In this document: in pieces, positions 10,970 through 59,961 of the stretch
Layout: each line of letters opens with the position of its first letter
How positions within the stretch are numbered: the first letter of the stretch is position 1
Assembly (NCBI GenBank): GCA_043821285.1
Contig: JBDRCZ010000017.1
Coordinates: 15,947 to 79,946 of the forward strand
DNA length: 64,000 nt
Direction: 5' to 3'
Source: Candidatus Omnitrophota bacterium
GTDB lineage: Bacteria; Omnitrophota; Gorgyraeia; B26-G9; JBDRCZ01
Translations under genes and position numbers: made by a program
Notes under the pieces: generated by a model
Database searches by the model: none
Told to the model about the DNA's origin: nothing
The model's input: the letters and a program-made list of their open reading frames with translations, nothing else

Positions 10970-10970
10970 A

Positions 10971-12718: not shown

Positions 12719-12773
12719 CATATATAATTTTATTATGATATATTAATATAACAACTAATAAAATCAAAAGTTT

Positions 12774-13262: not shown

Positions 13263-13382
13263 TGGAGAACCACGAGTATAACCCGTGATTTATCCATATT
13301 CAAAAAATGTTTCGCATTTTTGGGTTAGCTTAACCAATAATTATACAGTAGCAAAAAATACAAGAAAGGAGGCGGGTAATCT

Positions 13383-13655: not shown

Positions 13656-13724
13656 ATACGCGATATCGAATTACTATTTATTTATCAATAGGTTAAGATA
13701 AAAGATATTCGTAAAATATAAGAA

Positions 13725-13765
13725 CCCCAATGCATTAATTGGTATGGCAATGGGGTATTTTTCTA
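13725..13765 (+). terminator. Rho-independent terminator after hup
   Basis: CCCCAATGC ... GCAATGGGG stem (one mismatch) followed by TATTTTTCT. Confidence 0.5.
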
Positions 13766-13770
13766 ATTAA

Positions 13771-15063: not shown

Positions 15064-15111
15064 GACCGGGGATAAATTCTCTTCGCCAAAAAGCATAGCC
15101 GGTTATTAAAA

Positions 15112-27147: not shown

Positions 27148-27954
27148 TTAAATAACTTCAAAGCTAAGCCCCCAGCATAGCTGGGGGCTTAGCTTTGAAG
27201 TTATTTTTTTCTTTTCCTTATCAGATATGCTATTTTCTTCAGTTATAAGTTTCAAAATTAACTGAGAGGGCTTAACGGATTGTTTTAATTTTCTTAGATC
27301 CGGCAAGTCACGTACCTTTTTATTTGTATCTACATATTTATTTTTTATTTTCATGGCAAACGCTTCATCTCCCAGAATACAGCCTTTTAACGTCAGTTTT
27401 TGCAAAGGGAATTTTTCTTTTAACATTCCTGCTGCAACAAACTGCCGATATGATTTTTTGCTCTCAAAAGAAGCCATTATGGTTTTTGTTTCCATGTAGT
27501 TAGGCAATATTTTTGAACCAACATAGTAATGATAACTGCACCAGGGATATTCATAAGGTGTATTAGATAATCCGGCAGCGACGGCGTTAAGATGTATGTA
27601 GCGTGACAGTTCATTAAGGTATGCATCTTTATCAACAACAATTGCTTTATATCTGCCTTGAAAGAGGTGTCCTACCCTCTTTTGTGCTTTATTATAATAT
27701 GTGGTGTAGCTTGAATTTATATACTGCATGCACCGGCTTAAATTAGCATATGGAGTTTCCATAAGCAAGTGATAATGATTAGGCATTAAACAATAGGCAT
27801 GAATTATAAAGCTAAAACGCAGGTATGCATTTTTAATATAAAATAAAAACTTATCTTTATCATAATCAGTAGTAAATATTTCATTTTTATCATTTCCTCT
27901 GGCACTGATATGATAAAAGGCTCCTGGATATTCAATTCTTAATGGTCTAGCCAT
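27148..27954 (-). CDS. IS200/IS605-like HUH tyrosine (Y1) transposase, long form with C-terminal extension
   Basis: N-terminus MARPLRIEYPGAFYHISARGN, HUH motif HYHLL, catalytic Tyr region GHLFQGRYKA; 268 aa. No TnpB partner present. Confidence 0.75.
   Translation of the reverse strand: MARPLRIEYPGAFYHISARGNDKNEIFTTDYDKDKFLFYIKNAYLRFSFIIHAYCLMPNHYHLLMETPYANLSRCMQYINSSYTTYYNKAQKRVGHLFQGRYKAIVVDKDAYLNELSRYIHLNAVAAGLSNTPYEYPWCSYHYYVGSKILPNYMETKTIMASFESKKSYRQFVAAGMLKEKFPLQKLTLKGCILGDEAFAMKIKNKYVDTNKKVRDLPDLRKLKQSVKPSQLILKLITEENSISDKEKKKITSKLSPQLCWGLSFEVI
27154..27202. repeat. Perfect 23-bp-stem hairpin (AACTTCAAAGCTAAGCCCCCAGC-ATA-GCTGGGGGCTTAGCTTTGAAGTT) at the 3' end of the HUH transposase gene
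   Basis: Read directly; overlaps the last ~18 codons of the transposase ORF. Followed on the + strand by ATTTTTTTCTTTT. Candidate IS200-type subterminal hairpin and/or bidirectional terminator. Confidence 0.55.
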
Positions 27955-28968: not shown

Positions 28969-29508
28969 TTATTTATTAAACTTGATTATGACCTTACAAT
29001 AATCGTCGCCTTTTTTTATACATAAAGGTTCTTCAATCGTTCCTTCTTCCTGATAAGCGTCAAGGGTGAACTGGACAAGGGATTTTAAAAAAACACAAAG
29101 TTTATTTGGCGAGTTATACATATAGGTTAGCTCATTCTCTGTTTCTTTTAAAATTGTAAGTTTTGCGGTTGGTGTGCCGGCTAACGTTGGCAGTTCAATA
29201 TGATGCCCGGGAACACGGCGCAGCGCCTCTTTAGCACTCCCGGCATCTTCAAAATATCCGGGAAAAGTATTGCTGATCACTTGTCCGGCAAATTTGCCAA
29301 ATTTATCTTCAACTACTTCCGGTGCTTCGCTAAAACATGCCGCGGCTTCTCGATAAAGTTTTTGAAACTCTACTTCCGGATATATTCTTTCATCCTGATA
29401 TTTATCAGTTATCCCTATTTTTTTCATCAGGTCGTTTTTTTTATCCGGTCCCTTTTCTTTTTCCACAAAGGCAAGCAATATATTATTGACTATTCCCATC
29501 ATCAGCAA
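28969..29508 (-). CDS. Hypothetical ligand-binding protein, H-NOX-like N-terminus with V4R-like C-terminal DDYCKVIIKF
   Basis: MMGIVNNILLAFVEKEKG resembles the start of H-NOX/HNOB domains. Assignment is weak. Strong RBS AGGGGGG and an upstream consensus promoter support expression. Confidence 0.3.
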   Translation of the reverse strand: MLMMGIVNNILLAFVEKEKGPDKKNDLMKKIGITDKYQDERIYPEVEFQKLYREAAACFSEAPEVVEDKFGKFAGQVISNTFPGYFEDAGSAKEALRRVPGHHIELPTLAGTPTAKLTILKETENELTYMYNSPNKLCVFLKSLVQFTLDAYQEEGTIEEPLCIKKGDDYCKVIIKFNK

Positions 29509-29808: not shown

Positions 29809-29834
29809 AATTTTTTGTCATAAGACAAAAAATT
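29809..29834 (-). terminator. Terminator of giant gene A
   Basis: TTTTTTGTC-ATAA-GACAAAAAA hairpin immediately after the stop (minus sense ...GCAATATAA TTTTTTGTCTTATGACAAAAAAT). Confidence 0.55.
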
Positions 29835-32820
29835 ATATTGCTTGCTCTATAAATGTCAGGTTTTGGAATTGCGGTTTTGGAATTGCTGTTGTACTAGGGG
29901 GAAAATTAGGAAGTGGTGGATATCCAAAAAATTCTCTGGCAGTTGGATTTTGAATAGATTCAAAAGTAATCATACTTGGTGTCCCTCTATAAGTAGCTAT
30001 TTCTCCATTTAATTTTATTGTATTTTCATTATAATCATATGTAACAATTACCTGCAGTCTCTTACCTCTCTCTCCGCTTCTTGTGAGAACTAAGACGACA
30101 TTTAGTTCTGTAATTCTGCTTTGCATGGTATAAACTTGTATGCTTCCAATACTTTCAGGTATTTTAAGCTCTTTACTCCCAATTTTTTTACTCTCACTTA
30201 TAACTTCTTCTTCAATAATCTCTAAGCCTTCTGGCGCGTGAATTTCTCGTATCGCTTTCATCACTTCTTGCTTTAAATCTGGTGACAAATTTTGTACTAC
30301 TTCACTATTTTCTATAAATCTTATTTCCCTTGGATCAGTCCTCCGGCGTTCTTTGCCTTTTTTATCATCAAGTTCAAGAAATAGATATCCCCCGGTCGCG
30401 GAATTCCACGAAATCCTTGTTTGACCTTTATCATTGGCAGAAAAATTAATAGTAACATAGTTATTCGGACTGATTGTTAATATTGTTCCTTCACCAAATG
30501 ACGCGTGTTTCACCGTATCCCCTGCCCGCAATAGTGTTCCGTCAGGCAAAATAAGAGTAGGTCGAGCTAAGTTATTAATTACACTTCGTAACGCTATTTG
30601 TAGGTTTCCCTGGGAATTATTTTCAATATCAGGATAATTTTCAAAAAAGTCGTTTTGTGCCTTTTGTATTGCATTATAATGGCCTAATACTGAACAAATA
30701 GCTCCGTGATAGATGTATTCCTGGCGAATTAATGGATTATCCTGTTCACAAATTTGCCTTGATAACACTAAAGCCGGTTCAGGAAATAATTCGTTAAATT
30801 TCGCCTCACCTAAAATATTAATAATCTCTTGTTTTGTTTCTTCTGCATGTGAATAGAATTCAAGCACATAATCATCTTCTTGATTAAACACAACAGCATC
30901 AGTTACAATAATGCGTAATGGTATCTCACTTCCTGCAGTAGTATGCAAATACTTCCTTATTCTTTGTTCTATTTGTTCTATATCTTGCTTAAGATCATCA
31001 GTTTCATCGCGATACTGCCTATGGGAAAGATTATAGAGCATTTGTTTAAACGCACGGTCACCTTTGCGGATAAAGCCGCCTTCATTGTCTGTCGGATTAT
31101 TTTCTTTTGATCCTTCTCCTAATTCAGGAAGAAGGTGATATTGTTCAATTATTGCGGCTATTTCTTCAGGGTCATTTAGATTTCTGTTCCTAATTTTTTC
31201 ATAAACATCCGAATGCCAATTATCAATAGCATCACCTATAGCCTCATTTGACAACTCGCTACCTTGCGTTCGGGTAACTAAAAACATATACGATAATAAT
31301 GATAGTTTCATAGAATTTGGCAGAGTAGGTTCTTTGAGCATTTCTAATGGGGGTAACATACGGTTTTCTAAAACAGTTTTTACTTGTTCTGGAAAATCCT
31401 TCATAATAATAGGCCACAGCTTTAAAAAATTAACCAATGCTTCTTGATTTATTCTTTCAGGTGGAAACGCCTGGGAGTTTTTTTCAACTATTCTTTCTAT
31501 AAAATACAAAACTGCTCTGAGAGAGAAAATTTCTATGTTTGCATTTTGCGGAATTTCAACAGAAGAATTAACCCGTTCTCCATTAACAAGAATTATTGAT
31601 TTTTCAAAAGATAAGTCGTTTGCCTGGTATGTGGCTGAAATATAAGTAAGTAGTTCTGCTACAGTACTGCCTTTAGCAGGAATTCTAATTAATTCGTCAT
31701 TCCTACTGCCAATAAGTGAAGCAGAGATTCCTATTGTGTAAGGTAAAAGACAAACACTTATCCTTTCTTGATAAATTTGGCGTGTCTGTTTAGTTATAAT
31801 TATAGGTTTGCCAGCATTATCCCTTACTTCTACCCTACCCTCGTGTACGGCATGAAGAAGATTAAGAAAATCATCTGTGCTTTTAATTAAATTTTTATCT
31901 TTAGAAGCTAAATCATTCATAAGGCTAAGGGCATTAAGAAGATTTGCCCTATCATAAAGAGGAATCAAGCCTTCATTAATGCAGCGCTCGAGGTCTTCTG
32001 GTGTTTGAATAAATCTTGTATTAACATGAATCTCAAGTATCTTTTTAAGCGGGGCCCCGAGCGGTTCGTATTTACCAAAGATAAAGTTAAGCCCGCTTAT
32101 ATTATACATAGGAATATTCTTTGATATTCTAACTAAAGCATTACCGTATCCAATAAGACAGATTTTGGTCTCTTCAAAATCTTCTCTAGCGATTAAATCC
32201 TGAACCTGTATTAACCCCCTAAGCACCGCCTCTCTCCGAATATCTTGAATGTGTACTATTTCCTCGCGGATTTGCCGCATCGATCCTATCTTGCGCAAAA
32301 TTTGAGTTAATATTTTGGTATAAATTATAAAATGTAATAATTGGTCATCAGCTTCAACAATACCTTGTTTTTCCATTAAATACTGGATTAAAAATGCCCC
32401 ATGTTCAAACACATACTTGTCTTCATCAGAAACGCTATAAAATCTAACCAACCATTTATTAAGCGAACGCTTAAAAGACGATAAGGTATCAAAGCGTTGT
32501 ATAACATTTTTTGTTGCTAACAGGGCACTAAAGATAAGATTATGGATAATGTGACTAATGCCAGTTCTCTTGTTTTCTTGTAAAAGTTTATCAGCATCGA
32601 CTATTATTTTAGCTTCAGCAGATTCTTTTGCTAAAGTATCCGTTGCTTCGCCAGGATCACTAATATCTTTTGCAAAAATATCGCTATTTATGCTTAAGGG
32701 AGGGGCAAGATGGGTGTGTAGGCCTTTTAAATTGTTGCCGGCGGCCCAGGAGAGGTCGAGGCAGAAAAAAGCGTTAATTAGCATAATAACTGTTAGTTTA
32801 AACCAAATACTGCGTTTCAT
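29833..32820 (-). CDS. Giant-family protein A (995 aa): shared signal peptide, ThiS/MoaD-like beta-grasp segment, small UvrD-C-like beta motif, C-terminal FIEQAI
   Basis: N-terminus MKRSIWFKLTVIMLINAFFCLDLSWAAGNNLKGLHTHLAPPL (family motif). VAELLTYI...SIILVNGERVNSSVEIPQNANIEIF resembles ThiS/MoaD. GDTVKHASFGEGTILTISPNNYVTINF resembles the GxxVxHxxFGxG tail of UvrD-like helicases. Confidence 0.7.
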   Translation of the reverse strand: MKRSIWFKLTVIMLINAFFCLDLSWAAGNNLKGLHTHLAPPLSINSDIFAKDISDPGEATDTLAKESAEAKIIVDADKLLQENKRTGISHIIHNLIFSALLATKNVIQRFDTLSSFKRSLNKWLVRFYSVSDEDKYVFEHGAFLIQYLMEKQGIVEADDQLLHFIIYTKILTQILRKIGSMRQIREEIVHIQDIRREAVLRGLIQVQDLIAREDFEETKICLIGYGNALVRISKNIPMYNISGLNFIFGKYEPLGAPLKKILEIHVNTRFIQTPEDLERCINEGLIPLYDRANLLNALSLMNDLASKDKNLIKSTDDFLNLLHAVHEGRVEVRDNAGKPIIITKQTRQIYQERISVCLLPYTIGISASLIGSRNDELIRIPAKGSTVAELLTYISATYQANDLSFEKSIILVNGERVNSSVEIPQNANIEIFSLRAVLYFIERIVEKNSQAFPPERINQEALVNFLKLWPIIMKDFPEQVKTVLENRMLPPLEMLKEPTLPNSMKLSLLSYMFLVTRTQGSELSNEAIGDAIDNWHSDVYEKIRNRNLNDPEEIAAIIEQYHLLPELGEGSKENNPTDNEGGFIRKGDRAFKQMLYNLSHRQYRDETDDLKQDIEQIEQRIRKYLHTTAGSEIPLRIIVTDAVVFNQEDDYVLEFYSHAEETKQEIINILGEAKFNELFPEPALVLSRQICEQDNPLIRQEYIYHGAICSVLGHYNAIQKAQNDFFENYPDIENNSQGNLQIALRSVINNLARPTLILPDGTLLRAGDTVKHASFGEGTILTISPNNYVTINFSANDKGQTRISWNSATGGYLFLELDDKKGKERRRTDPREIRFIENSEVVQNLSPDLKQEVMKAIREIHAPEGLEIIEEEVISESKKIGSKELKIPESIGSIQVYTMQSRITELNVVLVLTRSGERGKRLQVIVTYDYNENTIKLNGEIATYRGTPSMITFESIQNPTAREFFGYPPLPNFPPSTTAIPKPQFQNLTFIEQAI

Positions 32821-33140: not shown

Positions 33141-36100
33141 TTAGATTGCTTGCTCTGCTATAAATATATTAGGTACTGTTATTTCTCCGGCACTTGGTAT
33201 ATCTTCAAGTAATGTGTCCGGTGCAAATACATTTTCATTAGCAGGATTGGCTCTTGTGGCTATATCTTTAGCGTTTATAACACGTTGTGAGCGTCTGTCC
33301 TTATGAGCACTAGTGTCATTCGTTTCCTTTTGTAATTTTGCAAGAAGAACCGGATTATCTTTTATTTCACGGTGATTTTTGACGTTGGGAAAAAAACCTG
33401 TTGTCAGTTTTCTTGCGGCGGTTAAATCATCAACAGTTTGAATAATCATTCCTAATTCACCATTTAAATCTTCGCTATGAACAACACCAGCTTCTAATCT
33501 TACCTGCATGCCTAATTCTGAAATCACTTCATTAACTTTGATTTCGATCGCTTTCAAAGTAGCGGCAATTTTTTCCGAAGTAATTATCCCATCATCTTCT
33601 CTATAAGCTCCTGCAAATTGATTATAAACATTGTTATTAATTGATAGAATTACATCATTTCCAACATTGTGGCCAAATACATCATTAATAACCTTAAATC
33701 CAAAATGCAATTGTGCAAATTGTGCATCTCCATTTAAGTCTGTTTCTCTGTAAAACTCTCTGTTGCCGCTTGCTCTTATGAAATCATTTATATTTATGGA
33801 TGTAGAACTAACTATATAATGTGCTGATAGTTTTATCAGTTGTACACGGTTATTTTCTCTTTTTATAACGAGGTAGAACTTATCAGGCCGTTCATGTACA
33901 ATACTGATTGAAACAGCAGATTTGCCGTCTAAAATGTTTTGAATGGTTTTGCCCAACTTATCTCTTTCTATTACCGGGTAAAACTTGTCTAAATCTTCTT
34001 TCGAAATACCCGCATCTATCATTTCCTGACGTATTCTTTCTCCTTCAACTCCTAATTGAAATTTTTTATCGTCAGCTATTTTAATCGGTGATTTTCTCTC
34101 TTCGCGCTCAGGATCTGGGCGTTCGGATAATCCTATTCCTACTAACTTGTTGGCATATTTAGTCCTGCGCTGGGTGTATTCCGCCTCATCTCTAGCAATT
34201 CTTAGTTGTTCCAATAGACTCATTTGGGAAATATTAGGTATATCACTTATTTTTACTGCTCCTACCGGGGCAAAGGGAACATAAACAGGAAAATAAATCT
34301 TACCATTAATATCAATGTCAAGACATTTAAGATTAGCGAGTATCTCGGATAGAACAGTGTTTTCATCCTCTTCTACATCTTTAGTGAACAGTATAAATGT
34401 TTCCTTAGAAGCCTTTTCTTCTTCTGGCGTTAAAAATACTGATTTTGTGACCGTAGTAATGTTTCTTTTTTTATTTTCTCTTAATTTTTCTATCAACGCA
34501 TCTCTGTTACTATCATTTATATTTTTTAGGATTGCAAAAACGTATTTTCCTTCAATCCGTTCTATGACCTTGCGTTGAATTTGTACGAGAAAGTGCTCAA
34601 TAACTTCTTTTGGCAACATAGGTGGTAACAAACCAACAACCTCATCACCACTAACATGATAAACTGTTCTACCTCTTTCTTCAATTTCTTTACGAGCTGC
34701 CTCAATTAATGTGTTAATTGCAAGTATATTCACATTTTCCCAGCCATATACATCATTTCTACCCCTTAGTTCGCTGATGTCAAAGAATATCACCCAAGCA
34801 TTGTCGTCGTGTCTACCTAAAAATACCACTGCTTCTTTTTCCCATTTTTGTGCATTTTCTGGATAGGCTTCATTAAGAAAGTTTCTTACGCGTGTTGTAT
34901 TATCAAATAAAGTGGTTAAATACATTATAAACTCTTGCAGTTCGTTATAGGGTTCGTCAGTATCTTTTCTACTTAAAAGAACATCTATCACCTTAGTAGC
35001 CGCGTCCCTAAATTGCTGATCATTAATATTTTGGTTAATAATTTTTCTCCACTTCTCACCTAAACGCTTTATTTCAGCCTTCAGAAACATTTCTATTGCT
35101 TCCTCATCTTCGCCTTGTTCTTTACACCTATCTACTTCTAATATTACTTTTTCTACATCTGCGCCCAACTCAAAAGCAAAAAATTCCCCATCTCGTTCCT
35201 GACTGGAATTTTCTCTTGGCAAAATGCTTGCCATACCTAAGCTAAATGCTGCGATTAAACCTGCGGTTCCTCCTCCCATCCCTGATTGAAGCATTGATGC
35301 TGCGGAAAATTCTGGTTGAGATGGGAAATAACCAAGTGCTCGCATTAATGTTCCAATAGATGCTGCTAAAAGCACGATGGATATTTTAGGTTTATTTCCA
35401 AACCATGCAACTAACCTCCTAATTAGCGTACCTAACCTGTTCTCATGGGAAGGACTTTTGTTTAATGCCCTCCAACCAGTTGGATGCATAAATGCTACAT
35501 TAGTTGCTTTGCGTCTACGATGAAGAAGTCCGCTTATATTTGCAGGAAATATTATTTTTCTGCTTATCCACTTTTTTACCTCATAAGCAATATATATTAA
35601 TGTTAAAATTATGCCCAAACCAGGTATTACCATACAATCGCTAATAAAATTATTCCACTGTTTAACACGAGCATAACCTTCTCTTACAGTAAAACTATCA
35701 ATAAAAAACTCTTCTCCCATCGGTGGCATGATACCAAACTTAGCAATAAAATCTGCCTGGTTTTTAAATGCTTCTGTTGTTTCTGGATTGATATCAAAAA
35801 AAGGAATAACTAATCGAGCAATGTTAAAAATCAACGTTACTGGGTTATGTTTTATAAGAAATTCCATTGGGTTTTTAGGCAAATTATCGACATGATGACT
35901 TAAACGCACTAATGTAACAGCGTATTCAAAAATTCCTCGCTTAGTAAAGAAATTTAATCCAATATTAGGATTACCCCATGTTCCATTCCATCTTGAACCA
36001 TAGACAATATCAAAATTGCTTTCACGGATAGGTGGATTATTTGTCATAAGAATTTGGTAAGTTTCGGGAGAAACTAATTTTATCAAAAATAGCGCTGGTC

Positions 36101-39100
36101 CAATATGTTCTGCTCCTTCAGTTCCATCTCTTCGCTCAATAAAATCGTCCAACATGCCCGCAGCTTTATATTCATTGTAAAGTTTAATTACGGCTGTATC
36201 GATTTCCTGAGCTCTTTTTCGTGCTGTTGATTCTATAAATGATCCCGTGTTTTCATCAATTTTTGATGCAAGTGGAGAGTTTTGAAATGTTTCAATTAGA
36301 TTATGGAATTCATTTAAAGCTATTTGTAATTCTCCATTATTTTCTTGTAATGATACAGGTTGTGGTAATTCATTAAGTTTTAAACTGTCAGCTGGTGTTG
36401 GCTGTACTAATCCACTTTTTCCAACTGGTTCTAAAGATACAATGTTTAATGGTGCAGCAATTCCGATTGGTGCTAATATGGTCTGTGATCCGATAGCGAG
36501 GATAGTGAGTAAAGGCAATACTACCTTACGTGCAAAAGAGAAGTTAACACTGTGTTTAAAACCCCAGCCAAAAATAGCTAATCCTATCAGTCCTATTGCC
36601 GCAATTACAGCACCTGGCAAACCAAAAAATAACCCTGCAAACCCAATTGCCATAATTAACCCATCGATTGAAAGTGCTGTGGTTCCATTAGGTAACCTAC
36701 GGCTGGAATTATTATCCGGCGCAGTAATCTCTACATTATCTCCATGATTAAACGTCTGTTCTAAGTCTTCTACGCTTCTGGGCAAGCCGTTAACTTTTAA
36801 CACCAACTCCCCAGACTGGAGCATTTTTTGTGTGGTTAGGATGGCTTTGCGATTACGATCATTATAATAAGAAATCTGTGAAGTAATAGTCTTAATAAAT
36901 AAATATGCCAGCAGATCATAGATATTTGTTGCGGGAATCTGTTCTGCTGATATCAGTTCTCTAATACCATCTTGTTGACTATTACTGGCTTCTTTAGTTA
37001 TTGTTAATTGGATTAATGCTTTTTGTTCTTCTTCTTGCAATTTTTGAGTTTGCTGAGTTATTTCATCCTCTAAAAGAGCTAATCCAGCCCTATGCTGCTC
37101 TAAGATATCTTTTTCAGGATCAAATTCCCCTTCAGCACAAATTATTAACCCATTTGGCATAATATAGTAGACTATATTGAGATAGCCATGTGTGCTTTTG
37201 CCGATCATCAGTGAGTTTTTATTATTTAGCCAACCTTCGTACCTTTCCTTATGAAGCATAATTTGTTGGCTATGTGTATAATATCTTAACGTTGCATTAA
37301 TAAAACCTTGCGCATCGGCTTCCTCTTCTTTACGATAAGTAAGTGTTGTTCCATGCCCAATGAAACCATTTTTATAATGTTCAGGTAAGTTCTTCCATTC
37401 TTTGTTCAAACCACTTTCAATCCTTTGATGCAGTGATTTGTTTCCAGGAGCCGGTATGACACGTTCTGGCTCTGATGCTAATATCTCAAAGCTCGTGAAG
37501 GCATAAAAAATATTTTCTCTATCTGTCGCAATACCCATGCGTGTTTGACCCAAATTATCAGTTACTACCTGCCAGGTTGTTAATCCTATTTCTCGAGTAT
37601 ATGCAATTAGCGCCAGTTCGTATATTTCTTCTGTTAATAGTCCATCATTTACCATCCGCACAAAAAGCTTAAGAAATTCGTTGCTGTGATATATAAACCC
37701 GACCAATATTACTAAAGAAATTTTTCTTAATCTTTCTGTTGCGTTCTCTTCCTTTTTGAGTTTACAATAGATTGCTTCTATTGCAGTAACACAATCACTT
37801 TTGTATTCTGAGCCTATTGGATCGTCTTCTAACAAGATATTCCCTAATATCTGAACCGCGTATTCTGTTCCAATATCACCTAAAAGGTTTTTAACAGCCC
37901 TTAGGCGTAAGTAAAGCGGGTTAGTTTTATCATTCAACGCATTTGTCACAAGTTTTTCTGCAGGTTCACCAATTCCTCTTATAATCTCCTCACCAAGCAA
38001 AAGTAAGTTGGTTAAGTTCATATTAATTATATATCTATTTGGTTGTTGAATTAATGTTCTCATTCGCTTAATACAAGATTCAATCACATGTGCTCCCAAT
38101 ATCTCTTTCCTGCCAATTTCAACTAAATAGTCCTTTAAAAGTTCTTTTCTTATGTTAGCAAGCTCATAAGCTGAATGAAAAAATAAAATTATTAAACTAT
38201 CAGTTATTTTATCAACCATTTGTTTAATAATATTGTTTTGGTTTTCTGCTCTGGGATTTATTTTTAATGCATTGGCAATTTCAGTTATAAACTGTCTATC
38301 TCTATCTGATAATTCATCCTGTTGAATTCTATTGTATAAGACGAATAAATATCTTATAAAATAATTGAGTACCTCAATAACAGTTCTAAGAAAATCTAGT
38401 TCAGTTTCGTTAAATACTTCTTTTTTTTCAAATTTTTCCTGTGTCATTTGCTCAAATATTTCTTTTATCAATATAACCACTCGTATTTCATTACGTTCTT
38501 TAAGTATGTTAATAAGTAAACGTCTTATCCTCAGGTCAGAAGATTGAAGCACGTATTCTCTTATGTGGGGAAATGCCCGCTCGACAATATTACCTAACAC
38601 CGAAGAGGCAATTGTAACACGTGTTCCGCGATATATTAATCCCTGTTCACTTAATTCTGTAACAGCAGATTGAAGATTATCTTCTGATTTTTTTGCAATC
38701 TCCGTCAAAATATCAATAATCACATCTTGTTTTTTTTCTCCATGATCAAGCAGGTGCCGGATAGCTTTTACGCCAAACCCTTTAACCAAAATATCTTTAA
38801 TATCAGATGTTATTTCACGATCTTCACTATGAGCTGATAAGGCATCTGTTAAAAGGTCCATTGCCGTTGCAATTGTATCTTCATCTCTATTAGCAAATTC
38901 ACCAAGTTCAGCCATATTATCAGTACGTGAAGCGCGATCTCTATACGTAGCTAACTTATTAATCACATCCTGTATGTAAGCTCTCGTTGTACTATTATAA
39001 CTATTTCTATTGCTAAAATGCTTTGTTGTATCTTCTCCCGGATTGCCCCAATCTTGTAAACTAGAAAAAGGTAACTTTAATCCACCTATTCCGGCAAATG

Positions 39101-39581
39101 TCAGTTTAGGGTTTATGCATTGCCAAAATAAATAAACTACCCCTGTTATCATTAACAATACATAAGGATTATTAAAATAACCATGAGGTATATTAGAAGA
39201 TAAGGAAATAATTATTTGCTTAAGTGGGTATAAGATTGTGCTTAGCGGTATTATATTGCTTATTACCAACACAGAAAATATTGCTAAAGCAGTTATACCG
39301 GCAATATAAGCTAATGTTCTGAATCTGTTTAAAAAGATTGGTGATTCTGTTGTAGGTTGTTTTGTTGTGATGGTAGCTGGGGCATGAGGTGTCATTTTTT
39401 CTCCTGAAATTATGAAAGCATGTTCCGTTACGGAATTAGCTATTTGCAATTCAGGGGCAAGGTGGGTGTGTAGACCTTTTAGATTGCCGCCGGCGGCCCA
39501 GGAAATGTCCAGGCATAAAAAGGCATTGATTAATATTATGGAAATTAGTCTAAAATAAATTTTACGTGTTAAATTATTCAT
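33141..39581 (-). CDS. Giant-family protein B (2146 aa): signal peptide, several TM clusters, HEAT/ARM-like repeats, two degenerate GGDEF-like nucleotide-cyclase palm domains, C-terminal IAEQAI
   Basis: N-terminus MNNLTRKIYFRLISIILINAFLCLDISWAAGGNLKGLHTHLAPEL. GGDEF-like 1: FFDISELRGRNDVYGWENVNILA...YHVSGDEVVGLLP. GGDEF-like 2: HFGFKVINDVFGHNVGNDVIL...AYREDDGIIT. TM clusters at about aa 85-165, 960-1010, 1290-1420. No terminator between B and A. Confidence 0.7.
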   Translation of the reverse strand: MNNLTRKIYFRLISIILINAFLCLDISWAAGGNLKGLHTHLAPELQIANSVTEHAFIISGEKMTPHAPATITTKQPTTESPIFLNRFRTLAYIAGITALAIFSVLVISNIIPLSTILYPLKQIIISLSSNIPHGYFNNPYVLLMITGVVYLFWQCINPKLTFAGIGGLKLPFSSLQDWGNPGEDTTKHFSNRNSYNSTTRAYIQDVINKLATYRDRASRTDNMAELGEFANRDEDTIATAMDLLTDALSAHSEDREITSDIKDILVKGFGVKAIRHLLDHGEKKQDVIIDILTEIAKKSEDNLQSAVTELSEQGLIYRGTRVTIASSVLGNIVERAFPHIREYVLQSSDLRIRRLLINILKERNEIRVVILIKEIFEQMTQEKFEKKEVFNETELDFLRTVIEVLNYFIRYLFVLYNRIQQDELSDRDRQFITEIANALKINPRAENQNNIIKQMVDKITDSLIILFFHSAYELANIRKELLKDYLVEIGRKEILGAHVIESCIKRMRTLIQQPNRYIINMNLTNLLLLGEEIIRGIGEPAEKLVTNALNDKTNPLYLRLRAVKNLLGDIGTEYAVQILGNILLEDDPIGSEYKSDCVTAIEAIYCKLKKEENATERLRKISLVILVGFIYHSNEFLKLFVRMVNDGLLTEEIYELALIAYTREIGLTTWQVVTDNLGQTRMGIATDRENIFYAFTSFEILASEPERVIPAPGNKSLHQRIESGLNKEWKNLPEHYKNGFIGHGTTLTYRKEEEADAQGFINATLRYYTHSQQIMLHKERYEGWLNNKNSLMIGKSTHGYLNIVYYIMPNGLIICAEGEFDPEKDILEQHRAGLALLEDEITQQTQKLQEEEQKALIQLTITKEASNSQQDGIRELISAEQIPATNIYDLLAYLFIKTITSQISYYNDRNRKAILTTQKMLQSGELVLKVNGLPRSVEDLEQTFNHGDNVEITAPDNNSSRRLPNGTTALSIDGLIMAIGFAGLFFGLPGAVIAAIGLIGLAIFGWGFKHSVNFSFARKVVLPLLTILAIGSQTILAPIGIAAPLNIVSLEPVGKSGLVQPTPADSLKLNELPQPVSLQENNGELQIALNEFHNLIETFQNSPLASKIDENTGSFIESTARKRAQEIDTAVIKLYNEYKAAGMLDDFIERRDGTEGAEHIGPALFLIKLVSPETYQILMTNNPPIRESNFDIVYGSRWNGTWGNPNIGLNFFTKRGIFEYAVTLVRLSHHVDNLPKNPMEFLIKHNPVTLIFNIARLVIPFFDINPETTEAFKNQADFIAKFGIMPPMGEEFFIDSFTVREGYARVKQWNNFISDCMVIPGLGIILTLIYIAYEVKKWISRKIIFPANISGLLHRRRKATNVAFMHPTGWRALNKSPSHENRLGTLIRRLVAWFGNKPKISIVLLAASIGTLMRALGYFPSQPEFSAASMLQSGMGGGTAGLIAAFSLGMASILPRENSSQERDGEFFAFELGADVEKVILEVDRCKEQGEDEEAIEMFLKAEIKRLGEKWRKIINQNINDQQFRDAATKVIDVLLSRKDTDEPYNELQEFIMYLTTLFDNTTRVRNFLNEAYPENAQKWEKEAVVFLGRHDDNAWVIFFDISELRGRNDVYGWENVNILAINTLIEAARKEIEERGRTVYHVSGDEVVGLLPPMLPKEVIEHFLVQIQRKVIERIEGKYVFAILKNINDSNRDALIEKLRENKKRNITTVTKSVFLTPEEEKASKETFILFTKDVEEDENTVLSEILANLKCLDIDINGKIYFPVYVPFAPVGAVKISDIPNISQMSLLEQLRIARDEAEYTQRRTKYANKLVGIGLSERPDPEREERKSPIKIADDKKFQLGVEGERIRQEMIDAGISKEDLDKFYPVIERDKLGKTIQNILDGKSAVSISIVHERPDKFYLVIKRENNRVQLIKLSAHYIVSSTSININDFIRASGNREFYRETDLNGDAQFAQLHFGFKVINDVFGHNVGNDVILSINNNVYNQFAGAYREDDGIITSEKIAATLKAIEIKVNEVISELGMQVRLEAGVVHSEDLNGELGMIIQTVDDLTAARKLTTGFFPNVKNHREIKDNPVLLAKLQKETNDTSAHKDRRSQRVINAKDIATRANPANENVFAPDTLLEDIPSAGEITVPNIFIAEQAI

Positions 39582-40047
39582 AAGTTAATAGCCTATCAGT
39601 TAATTCCAAATGTTCCGCCTATCAAACCGGCGGACAGGCAAATAATAAAATCCAAATGACAAATGAATCATTTAATATCTCAATCTAAAAATCAAAATGA
39701 TATATTAAAATTCAAATATTTTTCTCTTTGACAGGATTTACAGGATTAACATGATTTTTTATCCAGTTAATCCTGTCTATTTTCTTATTTTCTCTGTGAA
39801 CTTTGTGTTCTCTGTGGTTATAAATTTTTTTATTTTTTTTAATCGTAATACTCAATACATGCTACTCAATACGCATTACTTTTTATAGTGTGCTCTCTGT
39901 GGTTAAAATATTTTTTGTTTTTTTATCTACATAATCATCCGTATTCTACGCTCTCTTTTATATGCACTATTTTCATTACAATCATACATATTGTAACCGC
40001 TAATAATTACAATCTGTTAAATATATTTATAACAATTTTAATATATA
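39582..40047 (-). promoter_or_regulatory. Long conserved 5' leader of giant gene B (about 465 nt)
   Basis: Shares several blocks with the 59037-59553 leader of gene E: conserved stem-loop TCCGCC-GGTTTGATA-GGCGGA near the start codon, CTCTGTG(A/G)TGATAAATTTTT boxes (CACAGAG in RNA sense), ACTCAATAC heptamers, AATCCTGTCTAT box. Confidence 0.5.
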
Positions 40048-40054
40048 CAAGTAA

Positions 40055-40082
40055 AGTATACCATATTTTTCTGATTTTTCAA
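40055..40082 (-). promoter_or_regulatory. Near-consensus sigma70 promoter of giant gene B
   Basis: Minus sense TTGAAA-N16-TGgTATACT (extended -10). Same sequence context (GTATACCATAT...TTTCAAGG) as the gene E promoter. Confidence 0.5.
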
Positions 40083-40419
40083 GGATTTTGCTAAAAAAAT
40101 ATAGAAAATAACAGATTAAAAGATTCAGGTGATCACGGTTTTAAAACAGTATCAAGGCATTATTTATAACTTATTTATTTATAATATATTATAAAATAAT
40201 TATCGAATATGCCTACATGTTAATTATTCGTGAAATTCGTGTAATTTGTTGTTTAAAAATAAGCAGTTAAAGTTTTTCTTTGTGTGATAAATTTTATTTT
40301 TTACCGCAGAGAAAATCTAAAAGAAATCTCGTTCACAGATGTATGTAAGTTACATCCACTTTCTATTCTTAGTGCGTTACGTAAACGGTAAACTGCCTGC
40401 CTCCCGTTAGGGAGGTAAA

Positions 40420-40447
40420 CTAAAAAATTGCCATAGGCAATTTTTTA
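40420..40447 (-). terminator. Terminator of giant gene C overlapping its stop codon
   Basis: Minus sense GCAATTTAA-AAAATTGCC-TAT-GGCAATTTTTT: 10-bp A/T-flanked stem. The stop-codon region GGCAATTT can alternatively pair with AAATTGCC. Confidence 0.6.
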
Positions 40448-43400
40448 AATTGCCCGTTCAATTTCAAACAAATCTGCTATCTCTCTCTTCTCCAGTTTTG
40501 TATCTGATCCATTTATGCCTACCCTATAGCCAGTGTGTCTTTCTTGGGGAGCAACTATTAGAGAATAAAGAGCGTGTAGTAACAGCATATCAGAATCAGA
40601 AATATGAGGGTCTATATTTTTTGCTTCTAATATTGATTCATCATCGCTTATTATTTCTTGTATAATTGTTTTTACTATATCTCTATCTTCAGCTCTGCAT
40701 TTTTCATGAATTGCATTCAGACATTGTTCAAAAAATGGTCTGAGCATCATAAGCTGAACATTATCTTCTTGTGTATATGCATTGGCAACTGCTTTTGTAA
40801 CTGTTTCTAAAACAGTTTGCCGGTAATCTGGTCTTACCGTATAGATATTATCAAAAAAGATAAAAGTCCCGGCTGCGGCTTGTGGCATTATTGTCTTGTT
40901 TAGTATCTCATTAATAACATTTCGAGGAAAATATACTAAAATACTTAATAATTTATCTATTGTAGTATTACTTGGGGTTAAACCTTGCTGCTGGATCAAC
41001 TCTTGATATTTTCTTCCTATGATTCTATGCATAGATTCAAGACTTCTTCTATTTGCATTTATCATTAAATTATTTCCTTTAACTGCTGTAACTAAGTCCG
41101 TTAATTCGCTTCGTATCATTTCTCGTTCTTTCTCAAATACATCCGTATCTTCGTTCCTCTGAGATATAAATAACCCTAAAAATTCAAGTTCTAATGCTTT
41201 TTTAAAGGCATCTTCCGAAGTAAATGCGTTTAATCTAACAGTAATATTTTCTAACAACATTAGCTCAAAGCTGGTACCTTGACGAAAAATATGTTTTAGA
41301 AATTTTTCTGCATTAGTAAATTCGGGTGAAAAGATGATTTCTCCACTGACACCATCTACTGTTTTCTCCATCACTTCATTTATCAAATTACCTACTGAAT
41401 CTAAGTTGTGAAACTCGTTTAATCTATTTTCATCTTGTATAACAGCTCTTAAATAAACCTCCATTCTTAAAAGGTAATCAGCCAAAAAAACACCATCAAT
41501 TGCAAAACGTATATTTTCATTCGTATCTTGAGTTCTTGCAGTCAAGGCTTGATAAAGAAAATCATCTATATCGGTCAACATTCTATAAAAGATTTCCATT
41601 GCTGTTTCCTTATCCTGTTTTAGAGCAAGTTCGAGGACATTATTAACATTTGAAAAATCTCGTGAAATATACTCCTTAATTACATCACATAACGCATTGA
41701 ACAGTGGTTTTTTATCACGACGGTAAATAGCAAAACTTAGCCTAATAAATGCTGCTAATATCTCATGGGAATTAAATCCTGAATTTATTAAATAACTTTG
41801 CTCCTTTTCTATATAGATTGGTATAATTTTAGAAACGTCATATCCCGCAATAACTGTGTAAGCAACTGCAGCAAAAATAAGATTATGTGTTTCTGCATCA
41901 TGTTTAGGAATGTTTATTCGTTGTAAGATTTCTCCTAATACTTCTCCTGCCTCAGTAGTTCTCTCCTCTTTTCCTTCAATCTGCGCTTTTATTTTATTAG
42001 TAAAAAATTCAAAAACAAAATCAGGTTCTGCCTTAAGATACGCTTCTATTGTTTCCCAATCTGCTGCTAATAAATTACGCAGTTTTTGGATTTTATCTTG
42101 AACCACGATTAAGTTATTTCGTAGATTGCTTATTTTTTTCTGATTTTTTCTCGTTTGTTTTTGCTCTTTGTTTATGGTTTGCTGAATAGTTCTTTCATTG
42201 CTTTGGCGACGATTAAGTGCCTGCGTCCTTGTAATAACTCCTTCTAAGAGGATTGTTACTTCAGAGAGTTTTTCTCTACGCGCTTTTACTGCCGGGGGCA
42301 TATCTAAAAGTAGAGGTTCCCTTGTTGTCACTGGAGCCTGCCATGCTGGAAGTTCTTCAGATGCTACTTGCATAGCAGCAGCGCCTTGAAGGACCTGAGG
42401 ATATAATGAATGTTTTTGCATTGGGTCTTCAACTAACATAAGCTCACAACTTTGAGGCGGTTTGAGAGCATTAATTCTATTTTGGATAACTACTCCCAAT
42501 CCCCAAGCCCATTCTGCTTGACTTTTATATAAATCAACTAAGGCTTCAATATCCTCACTTTCGTTTATAATTGCGGTTATTCTCTCTACCAGAGGAGCCC
42601 GGCTGTTTCTGTTAGGATAGGTATTAAGCATTTGATATAATTCAGGTATATTACTTAAATCATTATAACCGAGTAATCTTTTTCTCAGTACCTCTGCTAT
42701 TACCCCCCTTATTTGCTTACATCCGTAGGTATATTTATTTATAGAATTATCTGTAAGTAAACGAAGCAGGTTTTCGATATCTAAGGAAAACACTTGCCTG
42801 ATAATACCGAAAATAATATATATTTCTACTTCAGAGTGAATTTTTTTACTAAGTAAATTAGCTAATGCAGCAAGTGCCTCGCCCCCCCATTTACTAACCA
42901 TCTCCTGAGCAATAGCTTGAGCTTGTGTTTTGTCATTATTTTCTGCTTGCTGACGTTTAAATCTATCGGAAATTGCGGTTAATCGTTCAATGCCATCTTC
43001 AATCGAAGAAACAGTTAGGTGTATTTCTGATATTTTTCCTTGAGAAGCAATACTATTACTTAATTGTGCGGCTGCTGCTTGCTTTGTTTTCTGGGGTAAC
43101 CTTGGATTTCGTGACCACTCTGAAAGCAAGCGATCATTTACTTCTGCTAATCTTTTTGCAGTGCTTAACGCCTTAATTCTATACCAAAGATAATTATTCC
43201 AGTATTCATCGTCCCATTCTTGGCTTAGATACACATCAACTAAGGCAACAATATCTTGATTATTTTTTATTATATGTTTCATCCTTCTTCTTGCCAGATC
43301 TTTAATGTCTTCGTTCGGACATAATGTTTCATTATTAATAACATAATATAATGCAGAAATACTTGTTACGTTTCGAGGAATGCTAACAGTTTTTATGATA

Positions 43401-47853: not shown

Positions 47854-47881
47854 CTAAAAAATTGCCGCAGCAATTTTTTAG
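47854..47881 (-). terminator. Terminator of giant gene D overlapping its stop codon
   Basis: AAAAAATTGC-CGCA-GCAATTTTTT hairpin; minus sense ...GCAATCTAA AAAATTGCTGCGGCAATTTTTTAG. Confidence 0.6.
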
Positions 47882-55285: not shown

Positions 55286-55313
55286 CTAAAAATTGCCGAT
55301 GGCAATTTTTTTA
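55286..55313 (-). terminator. Terminator of giant gene E overlapping its stop codon
   Basis: AAAAATTGCC-GAT-GGCAATTTTTTT; minus sense ...GCAATCTAA AAAAATTGCCATCGGCAATTTTTAG. Confidence 0.6.
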
Positions 55314-59933: not shown

Positions 59934-59961
59934 ACAAAAAGTTGCCATAGGCAACTTTTTA
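59934..59961 (-). terminator. Terminator of giant gene F overlapping its stop codon (covarying stem)
   Basis: AAAAAGTTGCC-ATAG-GCAACTTTTT. Relative to the C, D and E terminators, the A:T pair is replaced by G:C on both arms, a compensatory change. Confidence 0.6.

What the first reader, a model, noticed from the sequence alone, without database searches (positions are those of the whole stretch)
33141..39581. Giant protein B: membrane-embedded protein with two degenerate GGDEF-like palm domains
Two segments in the C-terminal third match the GGDEF/nucleotidyl-cyclase palm pattern D-x-[LF]-[KR]-x-[IV]-N-D-x-[YF]-G-[HW]-x-x-G-[ND]-x-[VI]-[IL]. The signature position reads SGDEV in copy 1 and REDDG in copy 2 instead of GG(D/E)EF. 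Degenerate GGDEF domains commonly act as c-di-GMP or nucleotide sensors. The rest of the protein is HEAT/ARM-like repeats interrupted by three TM clusters. A c-di-GMP module (PilZ, PilZ-PilT, GAF-HD-GYP) lies elsewhere in the window, so second-messenger control of this family is conceivable.
Basis: partly seen in the sequence, partly recalled or inferred. Interest (0 to 1): 0.6.

Follow-up and report, generated by a model that had tools for sequence, protein, structure and literature searches.

The report
Tandem GGDEF-type module, second domain rearranged
The tail of this 2146-residue Omnitrophota membrane protein holds two fused GGDEF-type (diguanylate-cyclase-like) domains, one keeping its catalytic residues and one rearranged and degenerate; this is an undescribed variant of a well-known signalling enzyme, not a new kind of system.

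Summary
The ORF is real: minus strand, 33141-39581, 2146 aa, from a Candidatus Omnitrophota MAG. Both motif segments are real and are homologous to GGDEF domains, although the full-length protein misses Pfam's threshold.

They are not two independent degenerate domains. Together they form one conserved module of about 490 aa (aa ~1574-2062). An exhaustive search found 43 cluster representatives at E<=1e-3, including B itself. The hosts are large or giant proteins; all named loci but one are labelled Omnitrophota.

- **Palm 1 (aa 1574-1817)** keeps the GGDEF metal ligands: the beta1 Asp (D1601) in 34/34 members and the signature D-E (SGDEV) in 31/34. Its model matches solved diguanylate cyclases. 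It looks catalytic, not degenerate.
- **Palm 2 (aa 1889-2062)** keeps the FK-x-IND-xx-GH-xx-G[ND] helix pair but has no acidic pair. REDDG is not its signature. The true counterpart is a conserved R-G-P-P-D-x-F-Y hairpin (HERPDKFY, aa 1896-1903). That hairpin sits upstream of the FK motif in B and most relatives, but in the canonical position in seven relatives.

GGDEF domains in Omnitrophota giants, and nearby pilZ genes, are already published. The activity, the product and the side of the membrane are all untested.

The parts
33141..39581 (-). Gene B, 2146 aa, intact ORF; NCBI MAG Candidatus Omnitrophota, locus tag ABH952_01580, annotated hypothetical protein
39417..39581 (-). N-terminal leader, aa 1-55. 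It resembles a signal peptide (K/R n-region, hydrophobic core, SWA|A) followed by a conserved THLAPPL-type motif. Four neighbouring giants share it at 42-89% identity.
39114..39305 (-). Hydrophobic cluster 1, aa 93-156 (segments 93-111 and 138-156)
36687..39104 (-). aa 160-965, orphan region with no profile, PDB or internal-repeat signal; the HEAT/ARM claim is unverified
36465..36680 (-). Hydrophobic cluster 2, aa 968-1039 (two or three transmembrane segments)
35646..36464 (-). aa 1040-1312, loop between transmembrane segments; inferred extracytoplasmic by the positive-inside rule
   Evidence: inference
35220..35645 (-). Hydrophobic cluster 3, aa 1313-1454: segments 1313-1331, 1400-1418 and a weaker 1436-1454, with a very basic loop at 1335-1400 (22% K+R)
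34863..35219 (-). aa 1455-1573, linker before the module, with only a sub-threshold VMAP-M1 hit; its first helix is predicted in the module model
34131..34862 (-). Palm 1, aa 1574-1817: GGDEF-type domain with its catalytic residues retained
34779..34781 (-). D1601, the beta1 metal-binding Asp (counterpart of PleD D327 and YfiN D287); present in 34/34 family members
34638..34652 (-). SGDEV, aa 1644-1648, the signature hairpin of palm 1. D1646 is invariant and E1647 is present in 31/34. It aligns to GGDEF in solved cyclases.
34287..34544 (-). Alpha/beta insertion of about 85 aa in palm 1, aa 1680-1765. It is variable or absent in relatives. Weak resemblance to ferredoxin or ACT-like folds.
33918..34130 (-). 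Inter-palm linker, aa 1818-1888, with the conserved YP-xxx-R-xx-L helix
33396..33917 (-). Palm 2, aa 1889-2062: rearranged, catalytically degenerate GGDEF-type domain
33858..33917 (-). Relocated signature hairpin of palm 2, aa 1889-1908 (AVSISIVHERPDKFYLVIKR; family consensus RGPPDxFY). D1900 is the only conserved acid.
33657..33704 (-). FGFKVINDVFGHNVGN, aa 1960-1975, the alpha1-alpha2 substrate-binding motif of palm 2. F1962 and K1963 are invariant; H1971 and G1974 are nearly so.
33588..33602 (-). REDDG, aa 1994-1998: a non-conserved loop between alpha2 and alpha3 of palm 2, not a signature
33144..33395 (-). C-terminal tail, aa 2063-2146, not conserved in relatives

Best explanation
Protein B is a polytopic membrane protein of an Omnitrophota bacterium. 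Its C-terminal third carries one conserved module of about 490 aa made of two fused GGDEF-type palm domains.

- **Palm 1** is a divergent but catalytically equipped diguanylate-cyclase-type domain. It has the beta1 Asp, the Asp-Glu of the signature hairpin, the N-x8-[D/N] base-contacting pair and the C-terminal A-K-xx-G helix.
- **Palm 2** derives from a GGDEF domain. Its signature hairpin now reads GPPDxF (RPDKF in B). In B's lineage that hairpin has moved from between alpha2 and alpha3 to in front of beta1. Palm 2 keeps the FK...GH..G[ND] nucleotide-binding helices but has lost the metal-binding pair.

My reading is that the two palms work as an obligate intramolecular pair. Palm 1 performs nucleotidyl transfer from GTP or a related NTP. 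Palm 2 supplies the second, non-catalytic nucleotide site or an allosteric GTP site, replacing the homodimer partner that ordinary GGDEF cyclases need. The product would be c-di-GMP or a related, possibly linear, dinucleotide.

Shown here: homology, the domain limits, the residue conservation, the hairpin relocation and the constant pairing of the two palms. Inferred: catalysis, the nature of the product, the pseudo-dimer geometry and a cytoplasmic location.
For: **A conserved family unit**
- An exhaustive phmmer search with aa 1441-2146 found 43 representatives at E<=1e-3 and 28 at E<=1e-10 (counts include B itself). The match always spans both palms, aa ~1575-2060.
- In every member long enough to tell, both palms occur together.

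**Homology to GGDEF**
- The isolated module scores above Pfam's gathering threshold for GGDEF, and 18 of 22 members hit it.
- The palm 1 profile hits only GGDEF cyclases in the PDB, best E 5.4e-4. The alignment runs from beta1 through the signature, 'riggDEiamvLPg' against 'RlGGDEFgilL'.
- The palm 2 profile hits GGDEF cyclases in 38 of 40 matches, best E 3.5e-5.

**Structure**
- The AF2 model of the module has pLDDT 81. Foldseek then returns GGDEF domains at probability 1.00, with target-normalised TM 0.57-0.66.

**Catalytic residues of palm 1**
- D1601 is present in 34/34 members, D1646 in 34/34 and E1647 in 31/34.
- These are the Mg ligands described for YfiN (D287, D330) in PMC7825114.

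**Hairpin relocation in palm 2**
- RGPPDxFY lies 52-58 aa upstream of FGFK in about 30 members. In four members with both motifs scored it lies 42 aa downstream; three further members show the same downstream order.
- An HMM built from the canonical-order members matches B in the broken order [97-129][32-104][129-171].
- Moving the hairpin in silico raises the score of all 19 permuted sequences, by 26 bits on average. B rises from 74.3 to 109.3 bits, as one end-to-end match.
- The same move extends B's Pfam GGDEF match from profile positions 43-65 to 43-155.

**Location**
- The positive-inside pattern of the last three hydrophobic segments places aa 1455-2146 in the cytoplasm.

**Signalling context**
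- PilZ receptors and an HD-GYP phosphodiesterase in the window show that the organism uses c-di-GMP.
Against: - There are no biochemical data.
- The full-length protein is below threshold for GGDEF: 13.8 bits in Pfam and 21.4 in TIGR00254.
- Palm 2 alone has no significant Foldseek match. The best GGDEF hit is 6ttr_A at E 0.45, TM 0.46-0.49. A hairpin relocation would explain this, but it is not proof.
- The two palms show no detectable similarity to each other.
- I could not inspect the inter-domain geometry: pTM is only 0.63 and neither coordinates nor PAE were available.
- The palm 1 turn reads SG, or R-[AS] with a 3-residue insert in relatives, instead of GG. B has N1618 where most relatives and canonical cyclases have the guanine-binding Asp.
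- Most homologues have a signal-peptide-like leader and no other hydrophobic segment. That predicts an exported module with no access to NTPs.
- B's own topology depends on a weak last transmembrane segment (KD 1.47).
- No partner gene is conserved next to homologues.
Confidence: 0.55

Rival explanations
1. Both palms are non-catalytic ligand sensors. The module binds GTP, c-di-GMP or another nucleotide and relays this to the rest of the giant protein, as degenerate GGDEF domains do in GGDEF-EAL proteins or in PelD and PopA.
For: - Palm 2 has lost the metal-binding pair but keeps the nucleotide-binding helices.
- The palm 1 turn is not GG, and B has N1618 in place of Asp.
Against: - D1601 and the D-E pair are invariant or nearly so across 34 members that share only about 25% identity. 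This is the pattern expected of an active site.
- c-di-GMP receptors of the GGDEF type use an RxxD I-site. No such site lies upstream of either signature (read from the sequence).
- No output domain such as EAL or HD-GYP accompanies the module in relatives.
Confidence: 0.2
2. The module is exported. It acts outside the producer's cytoplasm, either as part of a secreted or surface-anchored giant protein or as an effector delivered to a host or prey cell, and not as an internal signalling enzyme.
For: - At least 15 of 25 homologues with complete N-termini have a signal-peptide-like leader as their only hydrophobic segment.
- B and four neighbouring giants share a conserved leader.
- West-Roberts et al. 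2023 report that most domains of Omnitrophota giants are predicted extracellular. They also consider some of these predictions unreliable.
Against: - B itself has strong internal transmembrane segments, and the positive-inside rule places its C-terminus in the cytoplasm.
- An NTP-using palm has no substrate outside a cell.
- No signal-peptide predictor or topology predictor was available; the hydropathy scans are crude.
Confidence: 0.17
3. The palms belong to another palm family (Cas10 or mCpol, class III cyclase, or the tandem-palm hydrolase GTP cyclohydrolase III) and carry out different chemistry.
For: - Single-chain tandem palms are typical of Cas10, mammalian adenylyl cyclase and GTP cyclohydrolase III.
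- Foldseek lists 2qv6 (GTP cyclohydrolase III) at E 2.7e-3 and class III cyclases at E about 0.03.
Against: - Those structural hits have TM of 0.33 or less.
- Every significant sequence-profile hit is GGDEF.
- No Cas10, mCpol or Guanylate_cyc family appeared for any of 22 members at E<=1, and PADLOC returned nothing.
Confidence: 0.04
4. The motif matches are chance and there is no real domain.
For: The full-length protein is below threshold in Pfam and NCBIfam.
Against: - No shuffle out of 2000 reached the score of copy 2.
- The family is conserved and the structure models are confident.
- Profile hits are to GGDEF only.
Confidence: 0.01

Closest known systems
Canonical GGDEF diguanylate cyclases (Pfam PF00990; PleD, WspR, T. 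maritima 4urg, DosC 4zve, YfiN)
   Same: - Palm 1 shares the fold, the beta1 Asp, the [DE]E of the signature hairpin, the N...D base-contacting pair (N...N in B itself) and the C-terminal AK..G helix.
- Palm 2 shares the FK-x-IND-xx-GH-xx-G[DN] helix pair.
   Different: - Ordinary cyclases are single GGDEF domains that must homodimerise. Here two unlike palms are fused in one chain and always occur together.
- The GG turn is replaced by SG or R[AS].
- Palm 1 carries an insertion of about 85 aa.
- There is no RxxD I-site.
- Palm 2 lacks the acidic pair, and its hairpin is relocated.
Degenerate GGDEF domains used as GTP or c-di-GMP sensors (RmcA and PdeA-type GGDEF-EAL proteins, PelD, PopA)
   Same: Palm 2 resembles them in keeping nucleotide-binding elements without a full catalytic set.
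   Different: - The partner is another GGDEF-type palm, not an EAL domain.
- There is no I-site.
- The hairpin is relocated, which to my knowledge has not been described. A text search for 'GGDEF' with 'circularly permuted' found no natural case.
Single-chain pseudo-heterodimeric palm enzymes (mammalian adenylyl cyclase C1/C2, Cas10, GTP cyclohydrolase III MJ0145)
   Same: The architectural logic is the same: one catalytic and one degenerate palm fused in a single polypeptide.
   Different: The families differ. Sequence profiles match only GGDEF, and structural similarity to 2qv6 or class III cyclases is weak. That the palms face each other here is inferred, not shown.
GGDEF domains reported in Omnitrophota 'Archaeovorin' giant proteins (West-Roberts et al. 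2023, bioRxiv 10.1101/2023.11.21.568195)
   Same: Same phylum and same kind of host protein. That paper already proposes a link between these GGDEF domains and nearby pilZ genes.
   Different: That paper lists Pfam-detectable GGDEF domains. This tandem module escapes the Pfam threshold in the full-length protein, and its architecture is not described there. B (2146 aa) is also far smaller than the proteins they call giant.

Membership tests
GGDEF domain (Pfam PF00990 / TIGR00254) | Profile match at or above the curated threshold | tested here: inconclusive
   The full-length protein scores 13.8 bits (cut-off 23.8) and 21.4 bits (cut-off 37.4). The isolated module scores 25.7 bits, E 1.1e-5, just above Pfam's cut-off, and 18 of 22 relatives hit GGDEF with best E 1.4e-9.
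GGDEF domain, palm 1 | The beta-alpha-alpha-beta-beta-alpha-beta palm fold of diguanylate cyclases | tested here: met
   For the AF2 module model (pLDDT 81), Foldseek gives 4urg_B, 3i5b, 4zve, 3hvw and 6ttr_B at probability 1.00 and target-normalised TM 0.57-0.66. I assign these hits to palm 1 by elimination, because palm 2 alone does not give them.
GGDEF domain, palm 1 | Metal-binding Asp in beta1 and the [DE]E of the GG[DE]EF hairpin | tested here: met
   D1601, D1646 and E1647 are present in 34/34, 34/34 and 31/34 family members. They align to GGDEF in PDB cyclases. The role of these residues is taken from PMC7825114.
GGDEF domain, palm 1 | Gly-Gly turn of the signature | tested here: not met
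   B reads SG. Relatives read GG, SG, AG, TG, V-A, or R-[AS] with a 3-residue insert. From my own knowledge, SGDEF and AGDEF variants of known cyclases can be active.
GGDEF domain, palm 1 | Guanine-contacting Asn and Asp (PleD N335 and D344; numbering from my own knowledge) | tested here: inconclusive
   N1609 is present. The Asp position is N1618 in B but Asp in most relatives.
GGDEF domain, palm 2 | Palm fold in the canonical order | tested here: not met
   The order in B is hairpin, beta1, alpha1, alpha2, alpha3, beta4. Foldseek on the palm 2 model (pLDDT 87) finds nothing significant; the best GGDEF hit has TM 0.46-0.49 at E 0.45. Seven relatives have the canonical order.
GGDEF domain, palm 2 | Homology to GGDEF by sequence profile | tested here: met
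   The palm 2 profile matches GGDEF proteins in 38 of 40 PDB hits, best E 3.5e-5. De-permutation extends B's Pfam match to profile positions 43-155 of 161.
GGDEF domain, palm 2 | Catalytic acidic residues | tested here: not met
   No beta1 Asp is conserved in the permuted lineage. The hairpin reads GPPDxF (RPDKF in B) with a single conserved Asp.
GGDEF domain (optional feature) | RxxD inhibitory I-site five residues upstream of the signature | tested here: not met
   Read directly from the sequence: EERGRTVYHVSGDEV for palm 1, and no RxxD before RPDKF. The palm 1 family consensus also lacks it.
Diguanylate cyclase (enzyme) | Synthesis of c-di-GMP from two GTP | not testable with these tools
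   This needs biochemistry.
Cas10 / mCpol / class III nucleotidyl cyclase palms | Profile match to those families | tested here: not met
   None was listed for B or for any of 22 relatives at E<=1. PADLOC returned nothing.
HEAT/ARM repeat protein (N-terminal 1440 aa) | Profile or repeat signal | tested here: not met
   There was no Pfam hit at E<=10, no PDB sequence hit and no internal repeat by self-BLAST. The fold itself was not tested.

The most novel reading that the evidence does not exclude
The module is a self-sufficient, asymmetric single-chain GGDEF pseudo-dimer. It makes a product other than c-di-GMP, for example a linear pppNpN or a mixed dinucleotide, because only one of its two sites is catalytic. 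In most family members it is exported behind a dedicated, conserved leader. It would then act in the periplasm, at the cell surface, or inside a host or prey cell as a nucleotide-cyclase effector of a host-dependent nanobacterium.
Probability: 0.12. Interest if true: 0.8.

Novelty: new variant of a known kind. Interest (0 to 1): 0.45.

Why it matters
**For the enzyme family.** GGDEF cyclases are thought to need homodimerisation, which is the main point at which they are regulated. A fused pair of one catalytic and one degenerate GGDEF-type palm would be a different solution, resembling the C1/C2 arrangement of mammalian adenylyl cyclase. It could also yield a different product.

**For annotation.** The relocated signature hairpin shows that the fold tolerates rewiring of its active-site hairpin. 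It also explains why standard profiles miss the domain. The family profile built here (alignments A1 to A4) can be used to annotate an otherwise dark stretch of about 500 aa in Omnitrophota large proteins.

**For Omnitrophota biology.** It adds a candidate source of second messenger to genomes that encode PilZ and HD-GYP proteins. It also sharpens the open question of which side of the membrane the enzyme-like domains of these giant proteins lie on.

Tried and rejected
- **Word-index homologue searches.** With full-length B, the search returned only B itself and leader-only matches. With the module alignment it returned two ordinary GGDEF proteins. Neither was useful for this family.
- **Direct comparison of the two palms.** BLASTP and hhalign found nothing significant. 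A recent internal duplication can therefore be neither shown nor excluded.
- **Related loci.** The search for related loci with the broad alignment failed for lack of a conserved stretch. A narrower subgroup alignment gave six loci.
- **Conserved neighbours.** Genes flanking homologues in L001 and L005 are unrelated housekeeping genes. There is no PilZ or H-NOX partner.
- **Defence systems.** PADLOC returned no hit.
- **Riboswitch control.** Rfam found only one tRNA in the window.
- **VMAP-M1 and MgtE_N hits.** These are sub-threshold and I treated them as noise.
- **N-terminal 1440 aa.** No PDB relative was found.
- **Cluster look-up of ten homologues.** It gave no names or taxonomy.

Full report
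**1. The observation**

The ORF exists as stated: minus strand, 33141-39581, ATG start, 2146 aa. An identical protein is deposited as a hypothetical protein of a Candidatus Omnitrophota MAG, locus tag ABH952_01580, on an 86-kb contig.

In 2000 shuffles of the protein no maximum reached 12, and 22 reached 8. The pattern as written matches neither copy exactly. SGDEV is at aa 1644 and REDDG at aa 1994.

Hydropathy shows three hydrophobic clusters, at aa 12-156, 968-1039 and 1313-1454. The HEAT/ARM claim got no support. There was no Pfam hit at E<=10, no PDB sequence relative for aa 1-1440, and no internal repeat by self-BLAST. It was not tested by structure. West-Roberts et al. do report HEAT repeats as the most common domain of Omnitrophota giants.

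**2. Are the segments GGDEF palms?**

On the full-length protein the evidence is sub-threshold. Pfam GGDEF gives 13.8 bits, E 0.052, and TIGR00254 gives 21.4 bits, E 1.6e-4. Both cover only aa 1962-1985.

An exhaustive phmmer search of 1.84 billion cluster representatives with aa 1441-2146 changed the picture. It found 43 proteins at E<=1e-3 and 28 at E<=1e-10, counting B itself. The matched stretch is always aa ~1575-2060, so both segments belong to one unit. The host proteins range from contig-truncated fragments to 7683 aa. Every member long enough to judge carries both halves.

- Scanned on its own, B's module scores 25.7 bits, E 1.1e-5, on Pfam GGDEF, just above the gathering score. GGDEF is hit by 18 of 22 aligned members, with best E 1.4e-9. 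No other family recurs; in particular there is no Cas10, mCpol or class III cyclase family.
- A profile of the module hits 43 PDB sequences, 41 of them GGDEF proteins, through both halves.
- The halves searched separately give the same answer: palm 1 has best E 5.4e-4 and palm 2 has best E 3.5e-5.

**3. Palm 1 (aa 1574-1817)**

The AF2 model of aa 1571-2075, built on a 22-sequence alignment, has mean pLDDT 81 and pTM 0.63. Foldseek against the PDB returns GGDEF domains at probability 1.00, with target-normalised TM 0.57-0.66 (4urg, 3i5b, 4zve, 3hvw, 6ttr). The alignments run to about 240 columns against targets of about 160 residues. This fits a GGDEF fold carrying the insertion of about 85 aa seen at aa 1680-1765. 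Palm 2 alone does not give these hits, so I assign them to palm 1.

The profile alignment to solved cyclases runs from beta1 through the signature, 'riggDEiamvLPg' against 'RlGGDEFgilL'. Across 34 members in which palm 1 could be extracted, sharing roughly 25% identity:

- the beta1 Asp (D1601) is present in 34/34;
- the first signature acid (D1646) is present in 34/34;
- the second signature acid (E1647) is present in 31/34;
- the following LP is nearly invariant.

In YfiN the catalytic Mg2+ is held by the beta1 Asp (D287), the next backbone carbonyl and the signature Asp (D330) (PMC7825114). Palm 1 is therefore not degenerate where it matters.

It does deviate in four ways. The turn reads SG rather than GG; relatives have GG, SG, AG, V-A, or R-[AS] with a 3-residue insert. 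B has N1618 where most relatives have the Asp that contacts guanine in canonical cyclases (residue role from my own knowledge). There is no RxxD I-site. The insertion is variable and is absent in some relatives.

**4. Palm 2 (aa 1889-2062) and the relocated hairpin**

Palm 2 keeps an almost textbook alpha1-alpha2 motif. F1962 and K1963 are invariant, and H1971 and G1974 are nearly so. REDDG, however, is not conserved. In the models it is a short loop between two helices, and no beta-hairpin follows alpha2.

The family instead has a nearly invariant R-G-P-P-D-x-F-Y hairpin (HERPDKFY, aa 1896-1903 in B). It lies 52-58 aa upstream of the FGFK motif in about 30 members. In P0013, P0016, P0022 and P0048 it lies 42 aa downstream, at the canonical distance. 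P0011, P0034 and P0041 also have it downstream. In those seven, 'RSPPDKFYLVFEG' occupies the place of 'RYGGDEFAVLLPD'.

Three computations support a relocation.

- An HMM of the canonical-order members matches B in the order [profile 97-129 at aa 1880-1912][32-104 at aa 1912-1992][129-171 at aa 1998-2040].
- Moving the hairpin in silico to between alpha2 and alpha3 raises the score of all 19 permuted sequences against that HMM, by 26 bits on average. B rises from 74.3 to 109.3 bits, and the match becomes a single end-to-end hit.
- The same move extends the Pfam GGDEF match of B from profile positions 43-65 to 43-155. It also improves two of four other members tested.

By topology the move is compatible with the fold. 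A hairpin placed before beta1 gives a beta2-beta3-beta1 meander with the same strand directions as the canonical sheet. This is my inference, because I could not inspect coordinates.

Foldseek on the palm 2 model (pLDDT 87, pTM 0.85) gives no significant hit. The only matches with TM above 0.35 are GGDEF domains (6ttr_A, TM 0.46-0.49, E 0.45; 6d9m). An aligner that depends on strand order would behave this way on a rearranged domain, but this is not proof.

Palm 2 has a single conserved acid, D1900. The permuted lineage has no conserved beta1 Asp, whereas four of five canonical-order members with the [KR]-x-D-[VI]-[GA]-Y strand keep one.

**5. Context**

*The gene cluster.* B is one of six consecutive minus-strand large genes. 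B, its downstream neighbour and three upstream neighbours share only a leader of about 50 aa, at 42-89% identity to B. None of the others carries the module. They hold other enzyme-like domains, including transketolase and a methyltransferase.

*c-di-GMP genes.* The PilZ, PilZ-PilT and GAF-HD-GYP genes are real. They lie 15-20 kb away on the other strand among housekeeping genes. No c-di-GMP riboswitch is present. An H-NOX-like gene lies downstream of the next giant. From my own knowledge, H-NOX proteins often partner with diguanylate cyclases, but nothing here shows a link.

*Relatives.* Six loci from a scan of species-representative genomes are labelled Omnitrophota in five cases, with one 'Planctomycetales' bin. 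Their neighbours are unrelated housekeeping genes.

*Literature.* West-Roberts et al. 2023 already report GGDEF domains in Omnitrophota giant proteins and suggest an interaction with pilZ genes found downstream. Text searches found no description of a fused GGDEF-GGDEF pair or of a naturally rearranged GGDEF domain.

**6. Topology, and an unresolved conflict**

In B the loop at aa 1335-1400 is 22% K+R. Two hydrophobic segments follow it, at 1400-1418 and a weaker one at 1436-1454, separated by an uncharged loop. The positive-inside rule therefore puts aa 1455-2146 in the cytoplasm (inference).

However, at least 15 of 25 homologues with complete N-termini have a signal-peptide-like leader as their only hydrophobic segment. 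That predicts an exported module, which is hard to reconcile with an NTP-using enzyme. The same puzzle is stated for Omnitrophota giants in general by West-Roberts et al., who doubt some of the predictions. I could run neither SignalP nor DeepTMHMM.

**7. Mechanism**

*Shown.* The module is a conserved, always-paired tandem of a catalytically equipped GGDEF-type palm and a rearranged, degenerate one.

*Inferred.* Ordinary GGDEF domains each bind one GTP and must dimerise to make c-di-GMP (PMC7825114). The fused palm 2 therefore most plausibly replaces the partner subunit. It would either hold the second nucleotide or act as an allosteric GTP site, as degenerate GGDEF domains do in GGDEF-EAL proteins.

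With only one full catalytic site, the product could be c-di-GMP if modules also pair between molecules. It could instead be a linear dinucleotide if the module acts alone. I put 0.55 on 'palm 1 catalytic, palm 2 a non-catalytic partner', about 0.2 on a purely sensory module and about 0.17 on an exported role.

**8. Verdict**

The finding is real and the homology call is right, but two details are wrong: copy 1 is not degenerate, and REDDG is not a signature. The HEAT/ARM claim remains unverified.

The thing itself is a new variant of a known kind. It is a lineage-specific fused GGDEF pair with a relocated signature hairpin, in a phylum where GGDEF domains on giant proteins are already reported. 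Interest is moderate (0.45). The architecture and the hairpin relocation would interest specialists in c-di-GMP enzymology and protein evolution. Function is untested, and the finding does not open a long-standing question by itself.

Noticed in passing
window 29833-59036 (-): N-termini of the ORFs at 29833-32820, 33141-39581, 40445-47536, 47878-53553 and 55311-59036: Five consecutive large proteins share a leader of about 50 aa, 'M..I.F+L..IILINAFLCLDISWAA.GNLK.L.THLAPPL', at 42-89% identity to B over the matched stretch, and nothing else. The same leader occurs on giants from two other Omnitrophota contigs. Relatives that carry the module have an analogous leader, 'MKRKFPK..FL.CFLLIFEQSGFAQ..LDISG...FRPLHLR'. 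It looks like a Sec signal peptide plus a conserved motif after the cleavage site, which may be a dedicated sorting signal.
   Followed up: partly
homologues P0010-P0044: Most module-bearing homologues have no hydrophobic segment other than the N-terminal leader. Their GGDEF-type module is therefore predicted to be exported. This is unexplained for an NTP-dependent fold.
   Followed up: partly
window 47878-53553 (-) and 55311-59036 (-): Neighbouring giants embed metabolic-enzyme domains. One is a transketolase whose N, pyrimidine-binding and C domains are split by about 580 aa of insert. The other has a class I methyltransferase plus weak PRTase-like and HAD-like segments.
   Followed up: no
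window 40445-47536 (-) aa 1734-2297 and 59959-63891 (-) aa 288-874: Two of the giants share a region of about 590 aa at 36% identity (E 4e-98) with no Pfam annotation. The ORF at 59959-63891 probably continues beyond the window end. It ends in a SNAP/TPR-like segment and a BlaI-type winged helix.
   Followed up: no
window 28969-29508 (-): A standalone H-NOX-like (haem-NO-binding) gene (Pfam HNOB, E 2.5e-14) lies just downstream of the 995-aa giant. The YxSxR haem-contact motif reads YNSPN. H-NOX proteins often partner with GGDEF enzymes, but no link to B is shown.
   Followed up: partly
window 53922-54986 (+) and 27148-27954 (-): A DDE transposase gene sits between two giants on the opposite strand. 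An IS200/Y1-type transposase-like gene lies downstream of the cluster.
   Followed up: no
window 39582-40444: An AT-rich intergenic gap of 863 bp separates B from the upstream giant. It has no credible ORF and no Rfam match.
   Followed up: partly
L001 (CAYRUB010000004.1) 6524-15439: The closest species-level relative of one subgroup (74% identity over the module, in a 2971-aa protein) sits in a bin labelled 'uncultured Planctomycetales'. All other named loci are Omnitrophota, so this may be a binning or taxonomy error, or a transfer within the PVC group.
   Followed up: no
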